DNA of 64,000 bases from IMG/VR virus record IMGVR_UViG_2693429713_000009; one strand, written 5' to 3'. Under the pieces are notes generated by a model. It was not told where the DNA came from, searched no databases, and was given only the letters and a program-made list of their open reading frames with translations. The position numbers were made by a program, and so were the translations under genes. The DNA comes from a virus. Its lineage: Duplodnaviria > Heunggongvirae > Uroviricota > Caudoviricetes. The stretch's first letter is position 1. Each line of letters starts with the position of its first letter. Of this stretch, positions 2,116 to 26,315 are shown piece by piece.

Positions 2116-4063
2116 CAATCCTTTACGAATTAATATTCAGTCTACTTTTGCTGATACGATCCCCGGCTATATGCCAAGTCGCTGGTCTTCAGAAGAATTA
2201 AGCGAAGATGACCTGATTTTTGAGGCGGCGACCTTAGAAGATATTGAGCTTGCCTATATGGGCAATGAAATTCTGGTTGTGTCTGACGAAGCTATGTTTG
2301 AGTCCATAACTACAACCAGAATTCGGTTAGCTCAAACAATGCGAGCTTTCGTCCGTGCGCTGAATCGTGGCCTGAATGGTACGAATATTATGGCAGGGAC
2401 TGATGAAGCTGGGACCGATGAAAATGGACGTAATTGTATTGGAGGTGCGATTATCGGTCGTGTACGTCGGGTAGCTAATATCCCTGTTTTGACCGCGCAG
2501 ATACCGCTTACTGACGGGCAGAGTACAAGCATAATTTTCCACTCTCCAACAGCTGACGGGGCAAAAATAAAGAGTAACGACGAGCTTGTTGCATTTCAGT
2601 TTTTACTTAATAAGCGTAACGTAACTCACGTTGTCGCCCCGATTGGTGGGAGAGATGTTTCTTTAAGCCAGGTATGCCAGGCGCTATCTAATTTGATTGA
2701 GCGTAACAGCGAAAAATTTAAGAAAGCAAAAGAGCGCCAGGACAAAATGAAGGCAGATATTGAGAGTTATCTCAATGAAGCAGATAAACTGGCAGAAGAA
2801 CGGTCAATAATGATTGATCAGGTGGACGTTGCGCAACGTGGGCTGACTGAAAAGCGTGCTGCTCTTACGGAGATGCAAAAAAAACTTGATGCCCAGAAAG
2901 CCATCAACGAGGAATTACAAGAAAAACGCGATAAATTGTTGTCTGCTAAAGGTGAAAAAACGAAGGAACGAGCGTTTAGTGACCAGCTGCGACATGTAAA
3001 ACATAATCTTGCCATTGACGGAAAAACAGTGCTGGATAATGGCGCTGAAGTTAATTATGTCACGTCCGGCAGTGACAATTTCGTTACGATAGTAGCACCT
3101 GAAGGTAAATTCAGTATTGATGCCAGTGCTGTCAAAGGAGGCAGTTTGGCAGATGCTGCAACCAAATTACTTAAAGCCTACCGAGAGCATAACGCAGATA
3201 AATATAAAGTTGATGTGTTACCAGGCCAGCAGGAAGACTCCGAACCACCACAGACAGACCCCGAGACGAACCCAGTATCACAATCAGAAAGCCAAGATGT
3301 AGGTAAATACCACTATGCACTTCAATCTCGCCCGGCTGGTGTTGGTGCTGTGCCGGATGGAAATAAAGCCGTGCTTGATCGTCCTGACCAGGCTGATCAG
3401 TATTACGAATATGCTCGTCACGGTATCATTACGTATGACCGTAAACTGACAGATGAAGAAGTCAGCCAGTACGAGTTGCTCTATCTTCCTGATGAAGATG
3501 AGCTGAAAGATTTTGCAGACCAATTGGTTGCGTCCAGCATGTCGAAACATATTGATGGCTATGTGGACCTGTTTGGCAGTGACCTGAAAACATTCAAGGC
3601 GCAAGTGAAAATTCTTTTCCGCAAAGCGTTTCCAAACGTGGCGTATCCACTTAGTGATGGGGAGAACCTTTTCATTATGGACGTGTATAACGCCCTTCAA
3701 AATCATTCAAGCGAAGTAAAAATAGAGCATATGGTTGAGCCAGAATCACAACCACAACCACAACCACAACCACAACCACAACCACAACTACAACCAGCAC
3801 CAGAACAGGAGCCAGAAGAAACGGGTGAATCAGCAAGTGAAGCTGATCAGGAGGCAGATAAAGCACTGGAGTACCTGAAATCCGTGCCGGAGCAGTTTAC
3901 ATCCCGCGATCTGACGGTCATCAGTGCTGAACTTGATCATGTGCAGGAAGCAGCAAACGCTCTAATCAGTGCAGGTCGATACGACGAGAACGAAGCCACT
4001 GTTGGTGAAGCAGTTGACTACCTGATCAACATTCTGGCTGAAATTCAGCAGGGAGGTGCTTAA
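2102..4063 (+). CDS. darA: DarA-like antirestriction / internal head protein
   Basis: About 650 aa, size and operon position as in P1 darA; internal PQ repeat; overlaps upstream gene. Confidence 0.45.
   Translation: MSMINNPLRINIQSTFADTIPGYMPSRWSSEELSEDDLIFEAATLEDIELAYMGNEILVVSDEAMFESITTTRIRLAQTMRAFVRALNRGLNGTNIMAGTDEAGTDENGRNCIGGAIIGRVRRVANIPVLTAQIPLTDGQSTSIIFHSPTADGAKIKSNDELVAFQFLLNKRNVTHVVAPIGGRDVSLSQVCQALSNLIERNSEKFKKAKERQDKMKADIESYLNEADKLAEERSIMIDQVDVAQRGLTEKRAALTEMQKKLDAQKAINEELQEKRDKLLSAKGEKTKERAFSDQLRHVKHNLAIDGKTVLDNGAEVNYVTSGSDNFVTIVAPEGKFSIDASAVKGGSLADAATKLLKAYREHNADKYKVDVLPGQQEDSEPPQTDPETNPVSQSESQDVGKYHYALQSRPAGVGAVPDGNKAVLDRPDQADQYYEYARHGIITYDRKLTDEEVSQYELLYLPDEDELKDFADQLVASSMSKHIDGYVDLFGSDLKTFKAQVKILFRKAFPNVAYPLSDGENLFIMDVYNALQNHSSEVKIEHMVEPESQPQPQPQPQPQPQLQPAPEQEPEETGESASEADQEADKALEYLKSVPEQFTSRDLTVISAELDHVQEAANALISAGRYDENEATVGEAVDYLINILAEIQQGGA
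3747..3792 (+). repeat. (CAACCA)n hexanucleotide microsatellite inside DarA-like CDS
   Basis: About seven tandem CAACCA units encoding QPQPQPQPQPQP. Confidence 0.7.
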
Positions 4064-9917: not shown

Positions 9918-10019
9918 CGGAATGTATGATCTGCATCATCGACTGAAGTCATCCATTGCTGAAATTTTTAGTTGATCTTCCATGTTTTCAGGCTTATATT
10001 CATGCCGTCGTAGCAAATT

Positions 10020-10215
10020 CTGCGACCGGGTTTGACAGCCTGAATACTTACGCGGACAACCGCACATTTCCGATATTGCGGTATTTTTGTGTCCGTAAAA
10101 CCACGTTACGCCCGAATTATGGTGGGGCGTGATGGGGAGGCTTCGGCCTGCTGGTTTCGTAAGTGCCAGTCTGTCAACCCTGTCACGTCCTGCCACCTGT
10201 TTGACAGCGGGTCGC
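10020..10215 (+). ncRNA. candidate c4-like antisense RNA region
   Basis: Non-coding leader upstream of icd-like gene with direct repeats GTTTGACAGC (about 10029 and 10199) and complementary CTGTCAACCCTGTCAC (about 10172). Confidence 0.25.
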
Positions 10216-20855: not shown

Positions 20856-22079
20856 GTGACGGGAACAGCAATGAGTCAACACACTGATACTTCTAATCTG
20901 GAAATTATCTCGACAGCAATTGAAACGCTGCGCACACAAATCGCTCTTATACAGAAACGGAATCCGGGTGATGACCTGTCAAAGCGACTGCACGAGAGTG
21001 TCATTGCCACTACAGATAACCTGGTGGCGGAAATCAACAAGCTGCTTGATGATGGGGCAGTTGATTACAATAAGCTGGTGGATCAGTTTGAGGAATACCA
21101 ACAAGCCGTTAATGATGGCTTGATCCGTTTTTCACAAGTCACAGGCGTATCAGCGACAGTTGAAAGCCTGGGCGATGCAGTTAATCAATTTGCCGCGAAT
21201 ATGCGTAATGAGATCGGCAATCTGGAAGCGCGTCTTGAACAGGCAAATACACTGCGTAAATCTGCCGAAGCTGATTTGAACCGTTACAAAAAAGACTATC
21301 CGCCCAGCCTGACAAAGCGGCTGGATGTTGCGGAGAAGGATAACCGCACGCTGAAAAGAGAGCGCCGGGAACTAAAAGAGCGTTTAACCAAGCTCAATCA
21401 GCAATGCATTGATTATCAAGGCGAAGGCGTCACACTGCGTAAAAAGTTGGCTACAGCGCAGAGCATTATCGAAACATTAAAGCGAGAGTGCTCACAGCTT
21501 GGTCACGATCTGAACCGTGCTTGTGGCATGGGACAAAGACCAGAGACATTTCCACTTATGTATGACGGAAGGGATGCCATTGCCTACATCCATGAGTATC
21601 CGCACGGCCTGGTTGCGGAAACTGGGCAGCGTGGCGAAGCACTGCTGACGGCTAATTACCATCAACAAATCAGAACCAATCGCCTGTTAACGATGGATGT
21701 GATCCCATCGGTATGGGGAACGCCGCTTTACTATCGCCTGCCGGGCTTCGAAAAGGACTGGAATACCGACATAGACGAATGTCTCGCAGATAAAATTATG
21801 GCGTACCTGGAGACGGATTTTCCGCGCTTATATCGCCGGATTATGGACTCTAAGGATGCGCCAATCGATGAATTAAAAATGCGTCCGGAGACGCTGGAGG
21901 CAATCAAGCAGACGGAGTTTGATACTGTATTCAGTGTGGCCTGCATTCCAAGCTGTTTCCATGAAAGCATTCCGTTCATGCAAGGAGATCGTCGTCAGGA
22001 AATCATTGACGCTTGCCGGGTATGGGCGAACGAATGGGATAAGAAGAATGGGGGTGTAGAAGATCTTTACGGGAAATAA
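20856..22079 (+). CDS. hypothetical coiled-coil protein
   Basis: 407 aa; GTG in track, alternative ATG at 20871. Confidence 0.45.
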   Translation: MTGTAMSQHTDTSNLEIISTAIETLRTQIALIQKRNPGDDLSKRLHESVIATTDNLVAEINKLLDDGAVDYNKLVDQFEEYQQAVNDGLIRFSQVTGVSATVESLGDAVNQFAANMRNEIGNLEARLEQANTLRKSAEADLNRYKKDYPPSLTKRLDVAEKDNRTLKRERRELKERLTKLNQQCIDYQGEGVTLRKKLATAQSIIETLKRECSQLGHDLNRACGMGQRPETFPLMYDGRDAIAYIHEYPHGLVAETGQRGEALLTANYHQQIRTNRLLTMDVIPSVWGTPLYYRLPGFEKDWNTDIDECLADKIMAYLETDFPRLYRRIMDSKDAPIDELKMRPETLEAIKQTEFDTVFSVACIPSCFHESIPFMQGDRRQEIIDACRVWANEWDKKNGGVEDLYGK

Positions 22080-22081
22080 TG

Positions 22082-22091
22082 TGTTAGAAAT
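22082..22091. promoter_or_regulatory. operator-like motif TGTTAGAAAT
   Basis: At start of the non-coding RNA locus. Confidence 0.4.
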
Positions 22092-22237
22092 CTAAAATCA
22101 CAATTCGAATGTATTGATTGTGAAGGTAACTTAACATAGAATTTTCCTTGCTGGTGGGCGGTACCCACGTTTCGCTTGCTGGGCTTGATAGTCACTTATT
22201 GGTTATTGTTCACCCACCAGCATTTAACAAATTAAAG

Positions 22238-22247
22238 TGTTAGAAAA
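22238..22247. promoter_or_regulatory. operator-like motif TGTTAGAAAA
   Basis: Second site upstream of the tRNA/hairpin locus. Confidence 0.4.
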
Positions 22248-22588
22248 GTATAGTAACGCAAGAGCACGCTTTGGCACCGTGCAGGCCAAAGTTCAGTAGG
22301 TTTAGTGCGGAAAGTGGTTTCAGAGAGAGCACTTTGCGAAGTAAACGACAATACATGTTGAGCCACGGAAGGTCTTTTTAAGGTGTTCATTGATGATGGT
22401 CCGGCAGAGAGTAACGGTACATGCTGCATCTAATCATCAATGCACATCTTCAACATTAAGGAGGCATAGGGATTTTTGTGGCGGTTACCTTTTGCCCTGA
22501 GTCTCCTTAATGTTGCAGTAATGCACCTATGCGGATGTGGCCTTGCATTGTGTCTTGAAAGAATGGGGTAAGGCCGGGGATATCCCCA

Positions 22589-22603
22589 GGGGGAGGCACC
22601 CCC
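22589..22603 (+). repeat. GGGGG-AGGCA-CCCCC hairpin (GGAGGCACC family)
   Basis: One of three hairpins with identical loop AGGCA and covarying stems. Confidence 0.5.
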
Positions 22604-22829
22604 GCTGCAACGAACAGCCACAGACGGCAGTCGAGTGATGGAAACGTGCAAAGACTTTAAACCTCGTTACGGCTGGCGTGGCAAACGCGACAACCGAGAC
22701 AGAGCGGTGACGGGCGGAGAGAGTGCCGCATCAAGAAAGAAGCCGACTTGTGATCCCTTTCAGCGGGCATTTGAAAGTGAATCCAGCTCAGGCAGTCGGC
22801 TTCTTTCTTGTGTGAGATGTAGCGTATTT

Positions 22830-22853
22830 GCCCATCTTCGGGTGGGCTTTTTT
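22830..22853 (+). terminator. intrinsic terminator
   Basis: GCCCA-N-TGGGC hairpin followed by TTTTTT. Confidence 0.5.
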
Positions 22854-23290
22854 AGGGTTTTCGTCATGGTTAGCGACTTTGCGGCGGTTTAGAAACCGAC
22901 CATTAAAGTAAATGCAAACGATGATCTGATGATGGTAGCGGCCTAAGAAGCCAGACGCCACGGGGTATGAGTCGTCCCCCGTCAAAAAATCGACCGCAGA
23001 GTGTCCCCGTCTGTGTATTAGGGAACGGGGAGGCATAACAGGCAAGGGCGCTGGTGTGATTAACCAGATGAATGAGAAGGGTCAGGTCTTTCTGGTCAGC
23101 GCCCTTACCTGTTACGTCCCTCCCGCGTAACAGCCATTGCTTAATGGCATCCTGGGGGAATTTCTTGTAACGGGTATATCCCGTCATGCTGAAGGCGCTA
23201 ATCACGCTGGAAGCCAGGGTTATGCATCCCCTGTTACTGAATTGCAGCCAGGGCGCGGTGCGCCGAAAAGCATACGGAGGTGGAAGCCCT

Positions 23291-23313
23291 CGCCGGAGAC
23301 GTACCCGGCACAG
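23291..23313 (+). other. tRNA leader motif, diverged copy
   Basis: CGCCGGAGACGTACCCGGCACA resembles the conserved leader found at 23754, 24149, 24471. Confidence 0.35.
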
Positions 23314-23314
23314 T

Positions 23315-23391
23315 GGTGGTGTAGCTCAGTAGGATAGAGCAGCAGCCTTCTAAGCTGTCGGTCGGTGGTTCGAATCCACCCACCATCGCCA
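23315..23391 (+). tRNA. tRNA-Arg (anticodon TCT)
   Basis: Cloverleaf by eye: acceptor GGTGGTG/CACCATC, D arm GCTC..GAGC, anticodon loop CTTCTAA, T arm GGTGG-TTCGAAT-CCACC, encoded CCA. Confidence 0.75.
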
Positions 23392-23396
23392 ATTTA

Positions 23397-23483
23397 GGGG
23401 AGTTAGTCCGTAGGGGTAGCGGGGTAGACTGTAAATCTACTGTCATTGCGACTCGGATGGTTCGACTCCATCACTCCCCACCA
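23397..23483 (+). tRNA. tRNA-Tyr (anticodon GTA), long variable arm
   Basis: Acceptor GGGGAGT/ACTCCCC, anticodon stem-loop GTAGA-CTGTAAA-TCTAC, variable arm TGTCATTGCGACTCG, T arm GATGG-TTCGACT-CCATC, CCA. Confidence 0.65.
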
Positions 23484-23487
23484 AATT

Positions 23488-23563
23488 GCCGGTTTTGCTC
23501 AGTTGGTAGAGCGCCTGCCTTGTAAGCAGGATGTCAGCGGTTCGAGTCCGTTAACCGGCACCA
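23488..23563 (+). tRNA. tRNA-Thr (anticodon TGT)
   Basis: Acceptor GCCGGTT/AACCGGC, D arm GCTCAGTTGGTAGAGC, anticodon loop CTTGTAA, T loop TTCGAGT, CCA. Confidence 0.8.
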
Positions 23564-23564
23564 A

Positions 23565-23673
23565 CACAACAGGTAAGGGTATTTTGCGACGTCGGAGATC
23601 GCCGAGCTTGGCAGAGGGTTCGAATCCCTACGAAGTACCCTTACCGTTGTGATGAATGCGCAGGCTGATGCGC
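23565..23673 (+). repeat. long-stem hairpin repeat unit A (tRNA trailer element)
   Basis: CACAAC(A)GGTAAGGGTA pairs with TACCCTTACCGTTGTG; encloses T-arm-like AGGG-TTCGAAT-CCCT; followed by GATGAATGC and GCGCA-GGCTGA-TGCGC hairpin. Confidence 0.6.
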
Positions 23674-23753
23674 GAAAGACATTGCAGCTATTGCGGAAAA
23701 GAGCTGTCCGGCGGGGCAATTAAACGCCCGTGAGAGTCTGAAATAACCGCAAG

Positions 23754-23778
23754 CCGGAGATCAGCACCGGTCATCACA
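23754..23778 (+). other. conserved leader motif CCGGAGATCAGCACCGGTCATCACA
   Basis: One of three near-identical 25-nt copies preceding tRNA or trailer elements. Confidence 0.45.
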
Positions 23779-23856
23779 ACACAACAGGTAAGGGCATTCT
23801 CCTTATGGGGCTTGGCTTAAATGCATCGAGTGCTCTTACCGTTGTGATGAAGTGCA
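23775..23856 (+). repeat. long-stem hairpin repeat unit B
   Basis: ACAACAGGTAAGGGCATTC pairs with GAGTGCTCTTACCGTTGTG, then GATGAAGTGC tail. Confidence 0.55.
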
Positions 23857-23984
23857 GCTCTTAGAAGCAACCAGAAGATAAGCATCTGGCTTCACAACAT
23901 AAACCGCAGGAACGACCAATAAACGGTAGTCCGTATGGAGAACACCCCGTTGAGGAAGAGGCCTGGCCGGAACCGTAACCGGCA

Positions 23985-24101
23985 CTACAACGTTGAGAAC
24001 ACTGGCGTAACGGGGTCATATCCCAATCTATGAATAAATGTTGCGTTGCCGCGTGACAACCAGTGTTCTCAACATTGTGGTGAATGCACAGGCTGATGTG
24101 C
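23985..24101 (+). repeat. long-stem hairpin repeat unit C
   Basis: CTACAACGTTGAGAACACTGG pairs with CCAGTGTTCTCAACATTGTGG; stem sequence differs from unit A but flanks ACAAC and GTGGTGAATGC plus GCACA-GGCTGA-TGTGC hairpin are conserved; preceded by a tRNA-Thr-like 3' remnant. Confidence 0.55.
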
Positions 24102-24148
24102 CGCAACTACAGTAGTGCGCGCTTTGCGGGGCTTGCTACAACCCTGTG

Positions 24149-24173
24149 TCGGAGTTCAGCACCGACCATCACA
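24149..24173 (+). other. conserved leader motif TCGGAGTTCAGCACCGACCATCACA
   Basis: Second copy of 25-nt leader. Confidence 0.45.
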
Positions 24174-24260
24174 GTTTGATTCTCTGGCATGAGCATAACG
24201 CTGAAATAAGTCCAGTCTGGTGCGGTCTGATCACCCGCCGTTAGCTCCACGAAACGGAGC

Positions 24261-24371
24261 GCACAACAGGTAAGAGTATTTGTAGAGTTCGACTCTCTAC
24301 CGTGGGCTTTTTCCCGCGATGCGAGCCATAAATGCTCTTTCCGTTGTGGTGAATGCGCGTTGCTGGCGCGC
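24261..24371 (+). repeat. long-stem hairpin repeat unit D
   Basis: GCACAACAGGTAAGAGTATTT pairs with AAATGCTCTTTCCGTTGTGG; encloses T-arm-like GTAGAG-TTCGACT-CTCTAC; GTGGTGAATGC plus GCGCG hairpin. Confidence 0.55.
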
Positions 24372-24470
24372 AAGTCCGCCCTATGGCAACGAGGCGGTGT
24401 AGTAAATATCGATGCCTCAGTCATCAAGCGTACTGACCGGCCTTATGGGCTATGAAAAAAAGAGGCGCAG

Positions 24471-24494
24471 TCGGCGATCAGCACCGACCATCAC
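24471..24494 (+). other. conserved leader motif TCGGCGATCAGCACCGACCATCACA
   Basis: Third copy, directly upstream of tRNA-Ser-like element. Confidence 0.45.
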
Positions 24495-24501
24495 AATCAC
24501 T

Positions 24502-24588
24502 GGAGAGTAGGGAGCATGGTGCTCAAGCGGCCTTGAAAACCGTCCCATTGCGCAAGCGATGATGGTTCGATTCCATTACTCTCCGCCA
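24502..24588 (+). tRNA. tRNA-Ser-like (anticodon TGA) element, possibly degenerate
   Basis: Acceptor GGAGAGT/ACTCTCC plus G-CCA, anticodon loop CTTGAAA as in bacterial tRNA-Ser(UGA), T arm GATGG-TTCGATT-CCATT, long variable region; D arm and anticodon stem imperfect. Confidence 0.4.
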
Positions 24589-24720
24589 GTGCAACGTTAA
24601 GAGTATTTGGCTAATTAAGCGAATGCCGGAAGCAGAACCGGATCACCAAATGCGTACAGGCGTCATCGCCGCCCAGCCAGCCAAGTGCTCTTACCATTGC
24701 GGTGAATGCGGCTAAGCGCA
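24589..24720 (+). repeat. long-stem hairpin repeat unit E
   Basis: CAACGTTAAGAGTATTTGGCT pairs with AGCCAAGTGCTCTTACCATTGCGG; GTGAATGC plus TGCG-GCTAAG-CGCA hairpin. Confidence 0.5.
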
Positions 24721-24796
24721 CGCGGAACAGTTAAAACAATTTTCCTTAATAGTTAAGTCAAACATCCCGGCGTTAATTGTTAACTGGTTAACGTCA

Positions 24797-24811
24797 CCTG
24801 GAGGCACCAGG
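24797..24811 (+). repeat. CCTGG-AGGCA-CCAGG hairpin (GGAGGCACC family)
   Basis: Same loop as 22589 and 25605 copies with compensatory stem changes. Confidence 0.5.
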
Positions 24812-25211
24812 CACCGCAATCTAATAAAGTTTCAAGCAATGGAGTTTTTGTTGTCAGACTTCAGATATAGATGGTTGTGGAAGGAGAGCCTGTGCATAGT
24901 GCAGTTATTTCTTCCGCTATTTGTCTGCTTTTTCATGCTTCCTGAGCTGAAATACGCAATTTCAGACACTTTAAGCACTATCGTTACTTTTGTGTTTTAT
25001 CTTTACTTTGATTACTTATTGAGCACTAAAATCAATGAATTATCCGAGGAAATGCAAGGTGGCTGTAAGTGATGAATTTTTGGGCGTTTGCCGATAAGAA
25101 CCCTGGTTGGACATTTTTATTTTTGCTGGTGGTTGCATATGGGGTCGAGCAAGCGGCAAAAGCCTTACGCGGTTCTGGCAAAAAGCGTAAGCGGAATTAA
25201 CAGTAATCTGG

Positions 25212-25287
25212 CCCTTTAGCTCAGTGGTTAGAGCAGGCGACTCATAATCGCACGGTCACCGGTTCAAATCCGGTAGGGGCCACCATA
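25212..25287 (+). tRNA. tRNA-Ile2 (anticodon CAT, lysidine type)
   Basis: Near-identical by recall to E. coli ileX: GGCCCTTTAGCTCAGTGGTTAGAGCAGGCGACTCATAATCGC...TTCAAATCC...GGGGCCACCA. Confidence 0.75.
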
Positions 25288-25467
25288 TTTGGTTGTAACA
25301 CGGCGTCTGGCACATGCGTCGTTAGCGGTCTGGTGTAGCTGTTAGGTACCTTACTAACACTGCATGGGCACATCAGGTAGCCGGAATGTGCAAGTCACCG
25401 CTGGAGGGATAGCGGACTCAGGGACTCACCATCCTGGCGATTCGGTGTGACAGCCGGAATAGCACGG

Positions 25468-25537
25468 CGCACAACAGGAAAAGGCGTTTAATTAACGCGA
25501 GCGCCGTTTCCGTTGTGGTAATTGCGGCTATGCGCTC
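25468..25537 (+). repeat. long-stem hairpin repeat unit F
   Basis: CACAACAGGAAAAGGCG pairs with CGCCGTTTCCGTTGTGG; GTGGTAATTGC tail. Confidence 0.45.
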
Positions 25538-25604
25538 GTGACGAAGCCATTTTCATTCACTACGTTCTGATAAGTGACGTCGCCGGGAGTGGCTAACCTG
25601 GCAG

Positions 25605-25619
25605 GTGGAGGCACCACCG
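25605..25619 (+). repeat. GGTGG-AGGCA-CCACC hairpin (GGAGGCACC family)
   Basis: Third copy of loop AGGCA hairpin. Confidence 0.5.
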
Positions 25620-25739
25620 CCACAACTCCTCTCAATTCATCATATAGCCGCTCAGGCTGTACCTCTTAATTAATACGAAGTTACGACATCACTACCGGTA
25701 CTTCCGGGGGATAGTCGCGCGTGTAAAAAAGGAGACGTT

Positions 25740-26315
25740 ATGTTAATGGCGAACGATAACGCATATGCAGAAGAAGATCTCATTTTGAGTGACTTCATAG
25801 GGAAGCGGGAACGCTGGACCCAAAAGCGAGAGGAACTTTACGCCTCATTAGTTCGCAAAGGCGTCAATATCGAAACCGCACAGAGCGGCGATATGACAGT
25901 GGTAAGCGTTGGATTGCACGGTGTAAGCGTGTCAGCAATCAATCATGAGCCATACGTTGCGTTATCCGAGTCAATGGTAAGGTTAGTTAAGTTCCTGAAG
26001 TACACAGAAGCGAATAATGTAATCATTGGCAAAAAGAATATCCCTTTTTCCTCGGCTTTTTACTGGATGATGAAAGGGCTTGATGCCCGGCGGACATCAT
26101 GGCCTAAAGGGAGCTATATATCGATGTTCCGTGGCAGCATTGGCAGCAAAGAAAAGCTCTTCGAATTCTTGCCGGAAGAGGCATTCGATATTGTGGAAGG
26201 GTGCGATGTGATGGTGATGCCTCGCCTGGTAATGATGAATGGGGATTTACAGGCGCAGACAGACTGGTTTGCAACTGGTGTGGATATTATCGCGACTGAC
26301 TGGGAGGCTTTCTGA
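25740..26315 (+). CDS. hypothetical protein with DUF2829-like region
   Basis: 191 aa; SSAFYWMMKGLDARRTSWPKGSYISMF and C-terminal ATDWEAF resemble DUF2829. Confidence 0.4.
   Translation: MLMANDNAYAEEDLILSDFIGKRERWTQKREELYASLVRKGVNIETAQSGDMTVVSVGLHGVSVSAINHEPYVALSESMVRLVKFLKYTEANNVIIGKKNIPFSSAFYWMMKGLDARRTSWPKGSYISMFRGSIGSKEKLFEFLPEEAFDIVEGCDVMVMPRLVMMNGDLQAQTDWFATGVDIIATDWEAF

What the first reader, a model, noticed from the sequence alone, without database searches (positions are those of the whole stretch)
23565..25537. Six copies of a roughly 70-130 nt long-stem hairpin with compensatory base changes and conserved flanks
Units at about 23565, 23775, 23985, 24261, 24589 and 25468 share the 5' flank ACAAC(A)GG and the 3' flank GTTGTG(G/A)TGAATGC followed by a small hairpin. 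The stem sequences differ between units (GGTAAGGGTA/TACCCTTACC versus GTTGAGAACACTGG/CCAGTGTTCTCAAC) yet stay complementary, and the 3' small hairpin also covaries (GCGCA/TGCGC, GCACA/TGTGC, GCGCG/CGCGC). Two units enclose T-arm-like GTTCGAaTC hairpins. Covariation argues for a selected RNA (or ssDNA) structure, possibly a tRNA mimic or processing module.
Basis: seen in the sequence. Interest (0 to 1): 0.8.

Follow-up and report, generated by a model that had tools for sequence, protein, structure and literature searches.

The report
Phage RNA clamp hairpins punctuating tRNA array
The six hairpins are real and are copies of an apparently undescribed, widespread phage RNA element: a conserved roughly 19-base-pair stem that closes a highly variable insert and separates tRNAs and tRNA-like small RNAs in a long untranslated transcript of P1-like and lambda-like phages.

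Summary
The window is a D6/P1-like phage-plasmid. All six hairpins sit at the stated coordinates (folding z-scores -4.2 to -6.1), and two more lie upstream at 22450-22517 and 23036-23115.

The "conserved 3' flank plus small hairpin" is the 5' end of a second module, which I call S. S is a closed multi-helix domain related to the prophage sRNA STnc100/PasD. The repeat is therefore a clamp hairpin (L) followed by S or by a tRNA. Together these form a roughly 3.2 kb untranslated array.

The L clamp occurs in more than 120 viral contigs, in 125 phage records and in 340 of 5426 E. coli genomes. In every annotated lambdoid example it lies between antiterminator Q and the holin gene. It is always co-oriented with nearby tRNAs (92 of 92).

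- **Stem:** conserved or co-varying (10 of 19 pairs changed on both sides).
- **Strand:** G·U pairs outnumber A·C mismatches 100 to 9, which points to the sense-strand RNA.
- **Insert:** hypervariable (41 types) and shuffled combinatorially with its neighbours; T-loop hairpins recur in it.
- **Known families:** no Rfam family matches L.

The most likely role is a cis-acting RNA punctuation and scaffold hairpin for processing, stability and insulation, whose invariant arms also act as recombination linkers. One lead remains untested: the 3' arm carries a boxA-like core (UGCUCUUU). Function is inferred, not shown.

The parts
22114..22142 (+). The only sigma-70-like promoter match upstream of the array (TTGATT-17-TAGAAT)
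   Evidence: This is a consensus match only; it was the single + strand match in 22000-25800.
22450..22517 (+). L hairpin (clamp), extra copy outside the finding; stem allele AUUAAGGAGGCAUAGGG/CCCUGAGUCUCCUUAAU
   Evidence: z = -6.1.
22512..22611 (+). S domain closed by GUUGCAG...CUGCAAC, with a 3' hairpin GGGGGAGGCACCCCC
   Evidence: z = -2.9.
22827..22853 (+). Intrinsic terminator of the dicF-like leader segment. It is the only strong + strand terminator in the region and lies upstream of the tRNAs.
   Evidence: and the P1 annotation 'dicF-like region'.
23036..23115 (+). L-like hairpin, extra copy; stem GGCAAGGGCGCUG/CAGCGCCCUUACC, base helix UAACAGG/CCUGUUA, no S domain after it
   Evidence: z = -5.8. 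P1 has the same unit at L001 2320-2410.
23315..23563 (+). tRNA-Arg(UCU), tRNA-Tyr(GUA) and tRNA-Thr(UGU). The Thr 3' end abuts unit 1.
23565..23651 (+). L hairpin, unit 1; stem GGUAAGGGUAUUUU/ACGAAGUACCCUUACC; insert carries a T-loop hairpin at 23615-23629
   Evidence: z = -6.1.
23646..23780 (+). S domain 1: GUUGUGAUG, AAUGC, hairpin GCGCAGGCUGAUGCGC, variable centre, hairpin CCGGAGAUCAGCACCGG, CAUCACAAC
   Evidence: (repeat families D2 and D3).
23780..23846 (+). L hairpin, unit 2
   Evidence: 37.9 bits; z = -5.3.
23841..23898 (+). Short S domain 2 (GUUGUGAUG...CUUCACAAC)
23985..24079 (+). L hairpin, unit 3; diverged stem allele GUUGAGAACACUGG/CCAGUGUUCUCAAC, no bulged A
   Evidence: inverted repeat I1; z = -5.6.
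24074..24175 (+). S domain 3 (AUUGUGGUG...CAUCACAGU)
24262..24348 (+). L hairpin, unit 4; insert is a three-way junction with a T-loop hairpin at 24282-24300
   Evidence: 7 of 30 pairs compensatory across 6 homologues; z = -5.5.
24343..24497 (+). S domain 4 (GUUGUGGUG...CAUCACAAU), followed directly by tRNA-Ser
24502..24588 (+). tRNA-Ser(UGA); its 3' end abuts unit 5
24590..24701 (+). L hairpin, unit 5; stem GUUAAGAGUAUUUGGCU/AGCCAAGUGCUCUUACC. In lambdoid phages the same insert sits inside an S frame.
   Evidence: (z = -4.2).
24696..24820 (+). S domain 5 (AUUGCGGUG...CACCGCAAU); STnc100-like
   Evidence: RF02076 at 42.5 bits against a gathering score of 47, E = 4e-7. One search shows the same architecture in 933W STnc100. 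One search shows a close homologue between dicF and dicB in E. coli K-12.
24839..25200 (+). Two small ORFs inside the array: one of 77 aa with unknown function, and one of 43 aa that is TciC-like
   Evidence: 39% identity to P1 TciC; no similarity to TciB.
25210..25285 (+). tRNA with anticodon CAU (annotated tRNA-Ile2 in P1)
25470..25517 (+). L hairpin, unit 6 (short; stem GGAAAAGGCG/CGCCGUUUCC)
   Evidence: 54.7 bits; z = -5.1.
25512..25626 (+). S domain 6 (GUUGUGGUA...GCCACAAC, with 3' hairpin GGUGGAGGCACCACC)

Best explanation
The hairpins are copies of a transcribed, sense-strand RNA element that I call the L clamp. They sit in a roughly 3.2 kb untranslated, polycistronic array of tRNAs and tRNA-like sRNA domains (S). 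This array corresponds to the leader of the P1 ban operon and to the 'moron' site downstream of pR' in lambdoid phages.

Anatomy. Each L has a roughly 19 bp stem: CACAAC/GUUGUG, then a bulged A, then GGUAAGAGCAUU/AGUGCUCUU(U/A)CC. The stem closes an exchangeable insert of 30-170 nt. The GUUGUG strand of L is shared with the closing helix, or acceptor stem, of the module that follows.

Proposed mechanism (inferred, not shown):
1. L folds co-transcriptionally into a long, nuclease-resistant helix that separates neighbouring modules.
2. This helix brings the 3' trailer of one module and the 5' leader of the next to the base of a single dsRNA stem of RNase III-substrate length. One cut, or the hairpin acting as a barrier to exonucleases and RNase E, would then define both ends.
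3. The hairpins keep the long untranslated RNA structured.
4. The clamp acts as a stable scaffold presenting a variable payload; some payloads are T-loop tRNA mimics.

At the DNA level, the near-invariant arms and the L/S junction serve as short homologies at which inserts, S domains and tRNAs are shuffled between phages.
For: Structure is real and selected:
- Folding z-scores run from -4.2 to -6.1.
- On 28 distinct clamps, 88.3% of cells pair against 82.3% in shuffles (0 of 500 shuffles reach it). Ten of 19 pairs change on both sides. Slid controls reach at most 57%.
- When I condition only on the S 5' motif, 68% of sites have an upstream arm of -23 kcal/mol or better, against 8% at random sites.
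- The diverged stem alleles stay complementary.

RNA sense strand:
- G·U pairs outnumber A·C mismatches 100 to 9.
- All 92 tRNAs within 1.5 kb are co-oriented with L.
- The + strand centroid energy is -420 kcal/mol against -250 for the - strand.

One long transcript: no promoter-like or terminator-like sites lie inside the array.

Fixed partnership: 75 of 91 distinct units (58 S-type, 15 S-variant, 2 tRNA-Arg) are followed by an S start or a tRNA. tRNA-Thr and tRNA-Ser abut L directly. In three contigs tRNA-Arg begins inside the GUUGUGG motif.

S is an expressed RNA type: S5 resembles STnc100. 933W STnc100 has the same architecture and corresponds to EcOnc27, an Hfq-bound RNA of about 235/247 nt on northern blots (PMC4104026 supplement).

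Scaffold and payload:
- There are 41 insert types between near-invariant arms.
- The unit 4 insert is a co-varying three-way junction.
- T-loop hairpins occur in 11 of 67 inserts against 0.005 expected.
- The unit 5 payload recurs inside an S frame in other phages.

Shuffling:
- Eleven of 16 recurrent inserts have more than one downstream partner.
- E. coli matches break at the L/S junction.
- P1-family genomes differ by whole modules.
- This tci region is a known hypervariable region of P1-like phage-plasmids (PMC9603915).
Against: - No expression, cleavage or end-mapping data exist for L itself.
- RNase III or any other nuclease is an inference from helix length alone.
- The arms are far more sequence-conserved than a purely structural helix needs. 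This points either to a sequence-specific partner or to homogenisation by recombination.
- L is dispensable in some phages: the 933W tRNAs and STnc100 have no L.
- About 16 of 91 units precede something other than S or a tRNA.
- The S domains have weak thermodynamic signal (z = -0.4 to -3.0).
- The L base helix and the S closing helix compete for the same GUUGUG strand, so both cannot be fully formed at once.
Confidence: 0.5

Rival explanations
1. The L/S junction is a nut-like, rrn-like antitermination site. The 3' arm of L carries a boxA core that recruits NusB-NusE (the Nus complex). This makes RNA polymerase resistant to Rho across the long untranslated array and tethers the 5' strand of the next closing helix, as in rRNA leaders.
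For: - The major 3' arm alleles read (CA)GUGCUCUUUCC and GUGCUCUUACC. The rrn boxA is UGCUCUUUA (context CACugcucuuuaacaa) and the lambda boxA is CGCUCUUA (nutR cgcucuuacaca) (PMC2724277; the K-12 rrn sequence was verified).
- The commonest allele gives up a base pair (U·U in 18 of 28 clamps) to keep UUU.
- An allele in locus L096 keeps CGCUCUUU in a different register.
- boxA is followed by a GU-rich strand and a small hairpin.
- The array is long, untranslated and has no internal promoters, which is the situation in which boxA acts in rrn operons, in the suhB leader and in CRISPR arrays (established knowledge).
Against: - The boxA-like core is base-paired in a very stable stem, whereas NusB-NusE binds single-stranded boxA.
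- Similarity to rrn is limited to the 8-mer.
- Several alleles (units 1, 3, 6 and the 22450 unit) sit two mismatches from any boxA.
- In lambdoid phages L lies downstream of Q-modified polymerase, which already resists termination.
- I recognised the motif after the fact, so a chance match cannot be excluded (roughly 1e-3 per arm before allowing for other motifs I might have recognised).
Confidence: 0.15
2. The elements act primarily at the DNA level. They would be conserved inverted-repeat linkers or boundary sequences, or ssDNA hairpin sites comparable to integron attC sites or MITEs, that mediate cassette exchange. On this view any RNA hairpin is incidental.
For: - The arms are near-invariant while inserts and neighbours are shuffled combinatorially.
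- P1-family loci differ by whole modules.
- The CUS-3 record annotates 'boundary sequences' flanking the Q-S insert that holds L and S.
- The boundary-sequence model of phage mosaicism is established (cited in PMC3233612).
- The general shape resembles attC: conserved flanks, a variable centre and an extrahelical base.
Against: - Recombination linkers do not need to be inverted repeats, and they do not need compensatory change in diverged alleles.
- The G·U over A·C asymmetry and the strict co-orientation with tRNAs indicate selection on one strand.
- No integron integrase or transposase is associated with the elements. Neighbours are pmgS, lpa and pacA, or Q and the holin gene.
- GTTGTGG does not fit the attC core GTTRRRY.
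- There are no target-site duplications, the copies are not dispersed, and the interior is not conserved, unlike MITEs.
Confidence: 0.12
3. The units are decayed relics of tRNA genes or selfish repeats. They persist in a permissive non-coding 'moron' site and have no function of their own.
For: - T-arm fragments occur inside inserts.
- Real tRNAs occupy equivalent slots.
- L is absent from some related phages.
- Copy number varies within the P1 family.
Against: - The stems are maintained by compensatory change, and the arms are conserved across Escherichia, Klebsiella, Salmonella, Enterobacter, Erwinia, Edwardsiella and Serratia phages or genomes. Neutral relics would decay.
- The insert of unit 4 co-varies as a three-way junction.
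Confidence: 0.12
4. The region encodes proteins on the opposite strand, as annotated in P1 (plp 'putative lipoprotein' and upl).
For: P1 and RCS47 annotate plp and upl across these hairpins. The window has minus-strand ORFs of 81 and 106 aa.
Against: - No Pfam match exists for any of these ORFs or for P1 Plp and Upl.
- The ORFs are created by, and span, palindromic stems and hypervariable inserts.
- Whole-module insertions and deletions between P1, RCS47, D6 and the window break them.
- D6 annotates no gene here.
Confidence: 0.02

Closest known systems
STnc100 (Rfam RF02076) / PasD / EcOnc27 prophage sRNAs
   Same: The 'conserved 3' flank plus small hairpin' of the finding is the 5' end of domains with the STnc100 core architecture. 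That architecture is a closing helix, then AAU, then a small hairpin, a variable centre, a GGAGGCACC-type hairpin, and the closing strand. S5 scores 42.5 bits. STnc100 lies in the same kind of site, the untranslated region downstream of pR' or stx.
   Different: Only one of seven S domains approaches the Rfam threshold, and none reaches it. The array copies have no terminator of their own. The L hairpin, which is the subject of the finding, is not part of STnc100 and is absent upstream of it in 933W.
ERIC/IRU and Correia (NEMIS) transcribed palindromic repeats
   Same: These are imperfect palindromes of 70-130 nt found in transcribed non-coding DNA. They fold as RNA hairpins with conserved arms. 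By established knowledge, Correia hairpins are RNase III substrates and ERIC elements modulate mRNA decay.
   Different: L is restricted to phage operon leaders and is always in one orientation. It sits next to a tRNA or an S domain, has a hypervariable rather than a conserved interior, and shows no target-site duplication or dispersal.
RNase III processing stems of phage T7 early RNA and of rRNA operons (leader-trailer helices with boxA)
   Same: Both have a long dsRNA stem formed by sequences that flank or separate structured RNAs in a polycistronic untranslated transcript. L also has a boxA-like 8-mer adjacent to the 5' strand of the next closing helix.
   Different: No cleavage has been shown. 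The boxA-like core lies inside the stem. There is no homology to rrn leaders or spacers beyond 8 nt.
Integron attC sites and T4-type PeSL mobile regulatory cassettes
   Same: These are arrays of same-orientation cassettes bounded by imperfect inverted repeats with conserved ends and variable centres. The conserved repeats coincide with recombination junctions.
   Different: There is no IntI integrase. GTTGTGG does not match the attC core GTTRRRY. The cassettes here are non-coding RNAs and tRNAs. The strand asymmetry favours the transcribed sense strand.
Bacterial Y RNAs (YrlA)
   Same: Both have a long stem formed by the 5' and 3' ends and, in some units, a distal domain with a T-loop hairpin (PMC4201824).
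   Different: There is no adjacent Ro60/TROVE gene and no Rfam hit even at E of 10 or below. The T-loop is present in only a minority of inserts, and a D-arm counterpart is not evident.

Membership tests
tRNA (RF00005 / ARAGORN) | Cloverleaf that scores above threshold with a covariance model or a tRNA finder | tested here: not met
   ARAGORN and Rfam call only the five genuine tRNAs. No L or S unit is called, even at E of 10 or below. An S variant with a canonical T-arm gives only a 20-bit partial hit to the tmRNA tRNA-like domain.
STnc100 (RF02076) | Score at or above the gathering threshold of 47 bits | tested here: not met
   S5 (24698-24818) scores 42.5 bits, E = 4e-7. The other S domains give no hit. 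None of this concerns the L hairpin itself.
STnc100 (RF02076) | Core architecture: closing helix, 5' small hairpin, 3' GGAGGCACC-type hairpin next to the closing strand | tested here: met
   Comparison of the 933W STnc100 alignment with the folds of S(-1), S5 and S6.
Y RNA / YrlA | Encoded next to a Ro60 (TROVE) gene; Ro-binding stem plus D- and T-arm mimic | tested here: not met
   Neighbours are pmgS, tci, lpa and pacA, or Q and the holin gene. No Rfam hit at E of 10 or below. The T-loop is present in 11 of 67 inserts only.
Integron attC | R' core GTTRRRY and inverse core RYYYAAC at the ends of the palindrome | tested here: not met
   The ends are CACAAC and GTTGTGG. Positions 5 and 7 of the core do not fit (sequence).
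Integron attC | Adjacent IntI integrase with attI, and cassettes that carry ORFs | tested here: not met
   No recombinase is annotated within the flanks of P1, D6, RCS47, HK629, CobraSix or CUS-3. The cassettes are non-coding.
MITE / ERIC / Correia repeats | Dispersed copies in both orientations with target-site duplication and a conserved interior | tested here: not met
   Copies occur only in phage operon leaders and 92 of 92 are co-oriented with tRNAs. There are 41 unrelated interiors. The flanks are inverted, not direct.
RNase III substrate | Roughly two turns (about 20 bp or more) of mostly regular dsRNA | tested here: met
   Stems of 18-26 bp with one bulge or mismatch.
RNase III substrate | Cleavage by RNase III in vivo or in vitro | not testable with these tools
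   No data available.
boxA / nut antitermination site | boxA core sequence (rrn UGCUCUUUA; lambda CGCUCUUA) on the transcript | tested here: met
   The major 3' arm alleles read UGCUCUUUC and UGCUCUUAC, compared with the published sequences (PMC2724277). Minor alleles deviate by 1-2 nt.
boxA / nut antitermination site | boxA accessible as single strand and bound by NusB-NusE; Nus-dependent read-through | tested here: inconclusive
   The core is predicted to be base-paired in the L stem. Binding and read-through cannot be tested here.
Intrinsic terminator | GC-rich hairpin followed by a U tract | tested here: not met
   No L or S unit is called as a terminator. The only strong + strand terminator is at 22827-22853.

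The most novel reading that the evidence does not exclude
Temperate enterobacterial phages (P1-like and lambdoid) carry a dedicated cassette system for non-coding RNA. Arrays of conserved clamps (L) and tRNA-like frames (S) act as natural RNA scaffolds that display and exchange hypervariable payloads, including tRNA mimics and sRNA seeds, possibly decoys in phage-host conflict.

On this reading the clamp's 3' arm is a masked boxA. Each L/S junction would then be a miniature rRNA-type leader: Nus-factor loading, then tethering of the 5' strand of the next closing helix. This would make the long untranslated array Rho-resistant and would chaperone its folding. The same invariant arms would be the recombination sites that shuffle payloads between phages.
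Probability: 0.15. Interest if true: 0.85.

Novelty: new variant of a known kind. Interest (0 to 1): 0.62.

Why it matters
P1 and the lambdoid phages are among the best-studied genomes in biology. Even so, this roughly 3 kb leader is annotated either as empty or as doubtful opposite-strand ORFs (plp, upl).

If the clamp is a processing and scaffold element, three things follow:
- It explains how tRNAs and sRNAs embedded in long untranslated phage operons are separated and stabilised.
- It gives a sequence-level reason why the tci/tRNA region of P1-like phage-plasmids and the Q-S 'moron' site are recombination hot spots.
- It supplies a natural, modular RNA scaffold with dozens of uncharacterised payloads to screen, for example as tRNA mimics or decoys against tRNA-targeting defences.

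The boxA lead, if confirmed, would extend Nus-factor antitermination to phage non-coding arrays.

Tried and rejected
- **Rfam.** I searched at gathering thresholds and at E of 10 or below, on the window and on 28 related loci. Nothing matches L except chance miRNA-precursor hits, which are generic hairpins.
- **Covariance model R1.** I built it from clamps whose inserts were replaced by an artificial GAAA loop. It recovers only the short-insert units in full (25466-25525 and 23780-23846) and 3' halves of the others. It was still useful in showing that no copies exist elsewhere in the window.
- **Search for the S 3' strand.** A G·U-tolerant 9-mer search was not discriminating (score 9.2 against a null of 8.8). 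The S closing helix therefore rests on curated examples.
- **Homology to E. coli rrn leaders and spacers.** Only the 8-mer TGCTCTTT and tRNA similarity were found.
- **E. coli K-12.** DLP12 has no L or S. Qin has only an S5-like domain.
- **Literature.** Eight keyword searches (STnc100, PasD/RIL-seq, P1 ban operon and tRNA, P1 transcriptome, P1-like variable regions, boxA/Nus, YrlA, boundary sequences) plus literal searches for the arm sequences found no description of the hairpin.
- **Opposite-strand coding (plp/upl).** Rejected.
- **Terminator, MITE, attC and Y-RNA memberships.** Rejected; see the membership table.


Full report
**Context.** The window is a P1-family phage-plasmid of the D6 type. 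It carries the C4 antisense RNA and its a1b1 targets at 9994-10200. The region of the finding matches phages D6, RCS47, P7 and P1 at 91-94% identity, but only in four or five pieces covering 47-61% of the query. In P1 this stretch is the long leader of the C1-controlled ban operon: Pban/Op72, a 'dicF-like region', tRNA-Asn and tRNA-Thr, the opposite-strand ORF calls plp and upl, tciABC, tRNA-Ile2, then ban. In D6 and in the window it lies between pmgS and the genes upstream of lpa and pacA. ARAGORN and Rfam find five tRNAs: Arg-UCU, Tyr-GUA, Thr-UGU, Ser-UGA and a CAU tRNA.

**Checking the observation.** All six units exist at the stated places. Each is a single long-stem hairpin. Folding z-scores against dinucleotide shuffles run from -4.2 to -6.1, and none of 200 shuffles folds as well. 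The flanks and the co-varying small 3' hairpins read as described. A covariance model of the clamp finds significant matches only between 22.45 and 25.53 kb on the + strand, and nowhere else in the 64 kb.

**The unit is bipartite.** The conserved 3' flank (GUUGUGRUGAAUGC plus a small hairpin) is the beginning of a second module, S.
- S consists of a closing helix GUUGUGRUG...CAYCACAAC, a 5' hairpin after AAU, a variable centre, and a 3' hairpin (CCGGAGAUCAGCACCGG or CCNGGAGGCACCNGG) that directly abuts the closing strand.
- The closing helix co-varies between copies: GUGAUG/CAUCAC, GUGGUG/CACCAC, GCGGUG/CACCGC and GCAG/CUGC in the window, and GUGCUG/CAGCAC in lambdoid contigs.
- S5 (24696-24820) matches Rfam STnc100 just below threshold (42.5 bits against 47, E = 4e-7).
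- The bona fide STnc100 of Stx2 phage 933W has the same core architecture.
- STnc100 is related to PasD (bioRxiv 10.64898/2026.05.13.724894). Its 933W sequence matches the probe for EcOnc27, an Hfq-bound RNA of about 235/247 nt (PMC4104026 supplement). S-type domains are therefore expressed RNAs in related phages.
- A close homologue of S5 lies between dicF and dicB in E. coli K-12 Qin.

The array reads, in order: L, S, dicF-like leader with terminator, L-like, tRNA-Arg, tRNA-Tyr, tRNA-Thr, L1, S1, L2, S2, L3, S3, L4, S4, tRNA-Ser, L5, S5, two small ORFs, tRNA-CAU, L6, S6. tRNA-Thr and tRNA-Ser abut L1 and L5 with no spacer.

**Distribution.**
- A distant BLAST found 125 phage records from Escherichia, Klebsiella, Salmonella, Enterobacter, Erwinia and Edwardsiella hosts.
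- One insert type alone is present in 340 of 5426 complete E. coli genomes, unannotated.
- A restrictive pattern found the element in Superficieibacter, Enterobacter, Serratia, Citrobacter and Kluyvera species genomes.
- In every annotated lambdoid example (HK629, CobraSix, MII_001, CUS-3, HK620), L lies between antiterminator Q (pR'/tR') and the holin gene. This is the 'moron' site that also holds tRNAs, stx and known sRNAs (PMC4104026).

**Evidence for a selected sense-strand RNA structure.**
- Among 91 distinct units the arms are almost invariant while the interior is unalignable, with total unit lengths of 65-207 nt.
- Conditioning only on the S 5' motif, 68% of sites have an upstream complementary arm of -23 kcal/mol or better that ends exactly at GUUGUG, against 8% at random positions.
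- That unbiased set also reveals diverged stem alleles that stay complementary: GGUAAGGGUAUUUU, GUUGAGAACACUGG, GUUAAGAGUAUUUGGCU, AUUAAGGAGGCAUAGGG, GGGUAGCUCACUUGC, GGAAAAGGCG, GGUAAGGGCGUUG and CAAAGAGCGCGGGCG.
- The 3' arms of these alleles still share the pattern AG-Y-R-Y-Y-C-U-U-W-C/A-C. They are therefore diverged homologues evolving by compensatory change, not unrelated insertions.
- On 28 distinct clamps, 88.3% of cells pair against 82.3% in shuffles (0 of 500 shuffles reach it). Ten of 19 pairs show changes on both sides. The covariation score is 0.273 against 0.163. Slid controls pair in at most 57% of cells. The count is conservative, because alleles lacking the bulged A are one register off in that alignment.
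- G·U and U·G pairs outnumber A·C and C·A mismatches 100 to 9 in 56 distinct stems.
- All 92 tRNAs within 1.5 kb of a unit are on its strand.
- For the 1.26 kb core, the + strand has MFE -470 and centroid -420 kcal/mol. The - strand has -452 and -250.
- Inside the array there is no sigma-70-like promoter and no + strand terminator. The only promoter match is at 22114-22142 and the only strong terminator is at 22827-22853. This fits a single long transcript that must be processed.

**The insert is an exchangeable payload.**
- The 89 units that have sufficient flanking sequence fall into 41 insert clusters, 47 downstream types and 47 upstream types. Eleven of 16 recurrent inserts occur with more than one downstream partner. 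Twelve of 15 recurrent downstream types occur with more than one insert.
- E. coli matches to the HK629 L+S usually stop at the L/S junction.
- P1-family genomes differ by whole modules. P1 has Asn-Thr-L1-L3-Lx. RCS47 adds L2. D6 has L1-Ser-L5. The window has the largest set. This is the tci 'region 7' already listed among eight hypervariable regions of P1-like phage-plasmids (PMC9603915).
- Payloads look functional rather than filler. The unit 4 insert is a three-way junction with a T-loop hairpin, and 7 of 30 pairs are compensatory across six homologues. T-loop hairpins (G-UUCRANN-C closed by at least 4 bp) occur in 11 of 67 distinct inserts, against 0.005 expected. The unit 5 payload is found inside an S frame in lambdoid contigs.
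- Genuine tRNA-Arg(UCU) genes occupy the S slot in three contigs, and their acceptor stem starts inside GUUGUGG. Some S variants have canonical D-like and T arms and give a weak hit to the tRNA-like domain of tmRNA. S is therefore tRNA-like in topology. It is not a tRNA by any model.

**What it most likely does.** Shown: a conserved, co-varying, sense-strand hairpin with a fixed position relative to tRNAs and S domains, in an untranslated polycistronic region, whose arms coincide with recombination junctions. Inferred: L acts in cis as punctuation and scaffold. The stem (6 bp, a bulged A, 12-14 bp, and often more) is of RNase III-substrate length. It brings the 3' trailer of one module and the 5' leader of the next to its base, so a cut or a protective barrier there would define both ends. 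The GUUGUG strand is shared with the next closing helix, which implies ordered or alternative folding. Position 2 of the L base strand, position 5 of the shared strand and the S 3' strand change together (A-U-A to G-C-G in unit 5 and in the P1 unit at L001 3272). This suggests that both helices matter.

**A lead I could not settle.** The major 3' arm is (CA)GUGCUCUUUCC or GUGCUCUUACC. It contains the rrn boxA core UGCUCUUU, or the lambda-type GCUCUUAC (PMC2724277). The commonest allele tolerates a U·U mismatch in order to keep UUU. For a long untranslated array, Nus-factor antitermination would make sense. However, the core is paired in a stable stem, homology to rrn stops at 8 nt, and minor alleles deviate.

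**Comparison with known families.** No Rfam family covers L. It is not a tRNA, Y RNA or YrlA, terminator, attC site or MITE; see the membership table. It works most like transcribed palindromic repeats (ERIC, Correia) and like the RNase III spacer stems of T7 and rRNA operons. It differs in being phage-borne, orientation-locked and partnered with tRNAs or STnc100-like domains, and in carrying a hypervariable payload. The P1 ORF calls plp and upl, which overlap these hairpins on the opposite strand, have no family support and are broken by module insertions and deletions.

**Verdict.** The feature is real and its structure is strongly supported. It appears not to have been described as such, and its function is inferred only. 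Its anatomy needed correcting: the unit is bipartite, there are eight copies, and the arms are sequence-conserved around a cassette-like insert.

Noticed in passing
window 22450-22517 and 23036-23115: Two further clamp hairpins of the same family lie upstream of the finding's coordinates. The first is followed by an S domain at 22512-22611. The second has a different base helix (UAACAGG/CCUGUUA) and no S domain, and it is also present in P1 upstream of tRNA-Asn.
   Followed up: yes
L135 13448-13590 (E. coli K-12 Qin prophage, NC_000913.3 about 1649447-1649589): The untranslated spacer between dicF and dicB in K-12 contains a close homologue of window S5 (UGUGAUGUGGUGAAUGCGGCUGAGCGCACGCGG...CCUGGAGGCACCAGGCACUGCAUCACA). 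It is unannotated in RefSeq. This gives a tractable model locus for the S domain.
   Followed up: partly
L001 2739-3308 (P1 plp and upl); window 23861-24427, minus strand: The P1 genes plp ('putative lipoprotein') and upl are opposite-strand ORFs laid across the L and S hairpins. They have no Pfam support and are not conserved as ORFs among P1, RCS47, D6 and the window. They are probably annotation artefacts.
   Followed up: partly
window 22735-22950; L137 (HK620) 1745-1830; L006 (MII_001) 2575-2660: A 'dicF-like' leader segment ends in a strong intrinsic terminator (22827-22853). It is followed by a conserved motif (UUUUCGUCAUGGUUAGCGACUUUGCGG...AAAUGCAAACGAUGA) that is shared between the P1 family and lambdoid late leaders. 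Rfam DicF does not call it.
   Followed up: no
window 24613-24678; loci L045, L054, L118, L122: The insert of unit 5 (AAUUAAGCGAAUGCCGGAAGCAGAACCGGAUCACCAAAUGCGUACAGGCGUCAUCGCCGCCCAGC) recurs in lambdoid contigs. There it is framed by an S-type closing helix (GUUGUGCUG...CAGCACAAC) instead of an L clamp. It looks like a discrete conserved RNA of unknown function.
   Followed up: partly
window 24839-25200: The window lacks tciA. The 77-aa ORF in the tciB position has no similarity to P1 TciB. The 43-aa ORF is TciC-like (39% identity).
   Followed up: partly
window 9994-10200: C4 antisense RNA (RF01695) and its a1/b1 target element (RF03163) mark the P1-type immI immunity region.
   Followed up: no
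L082 2579-2645; L005 1875-1948; L081 2710-2786: In lambdoid loci that carry L, other Rfam motifs lie close by in the same Q-S leader: int-alpA RNA and isrJ (the short pR' transcript).
   Followed up: no
L136 (CUS-3) 2445-2508 and 2800-3040: The CUS-3 GenBank record annotates 'boundary sequences' bsq4 and bsq3 on either side of the Q-S insert that contains L and S. The mosaic junctions were therefore noticed by its annotators, but the hairpin itself was not annotated.
   Followed up: partly
window 24501-24585: tRNA-Ser(UGA) scores below threshold as tRNA-Sec in Rfam (40 bits against 47) rather than as a standard tRNA. D6 notes that the same gene is not called by tRNAscan-SE.
   Followed up: no
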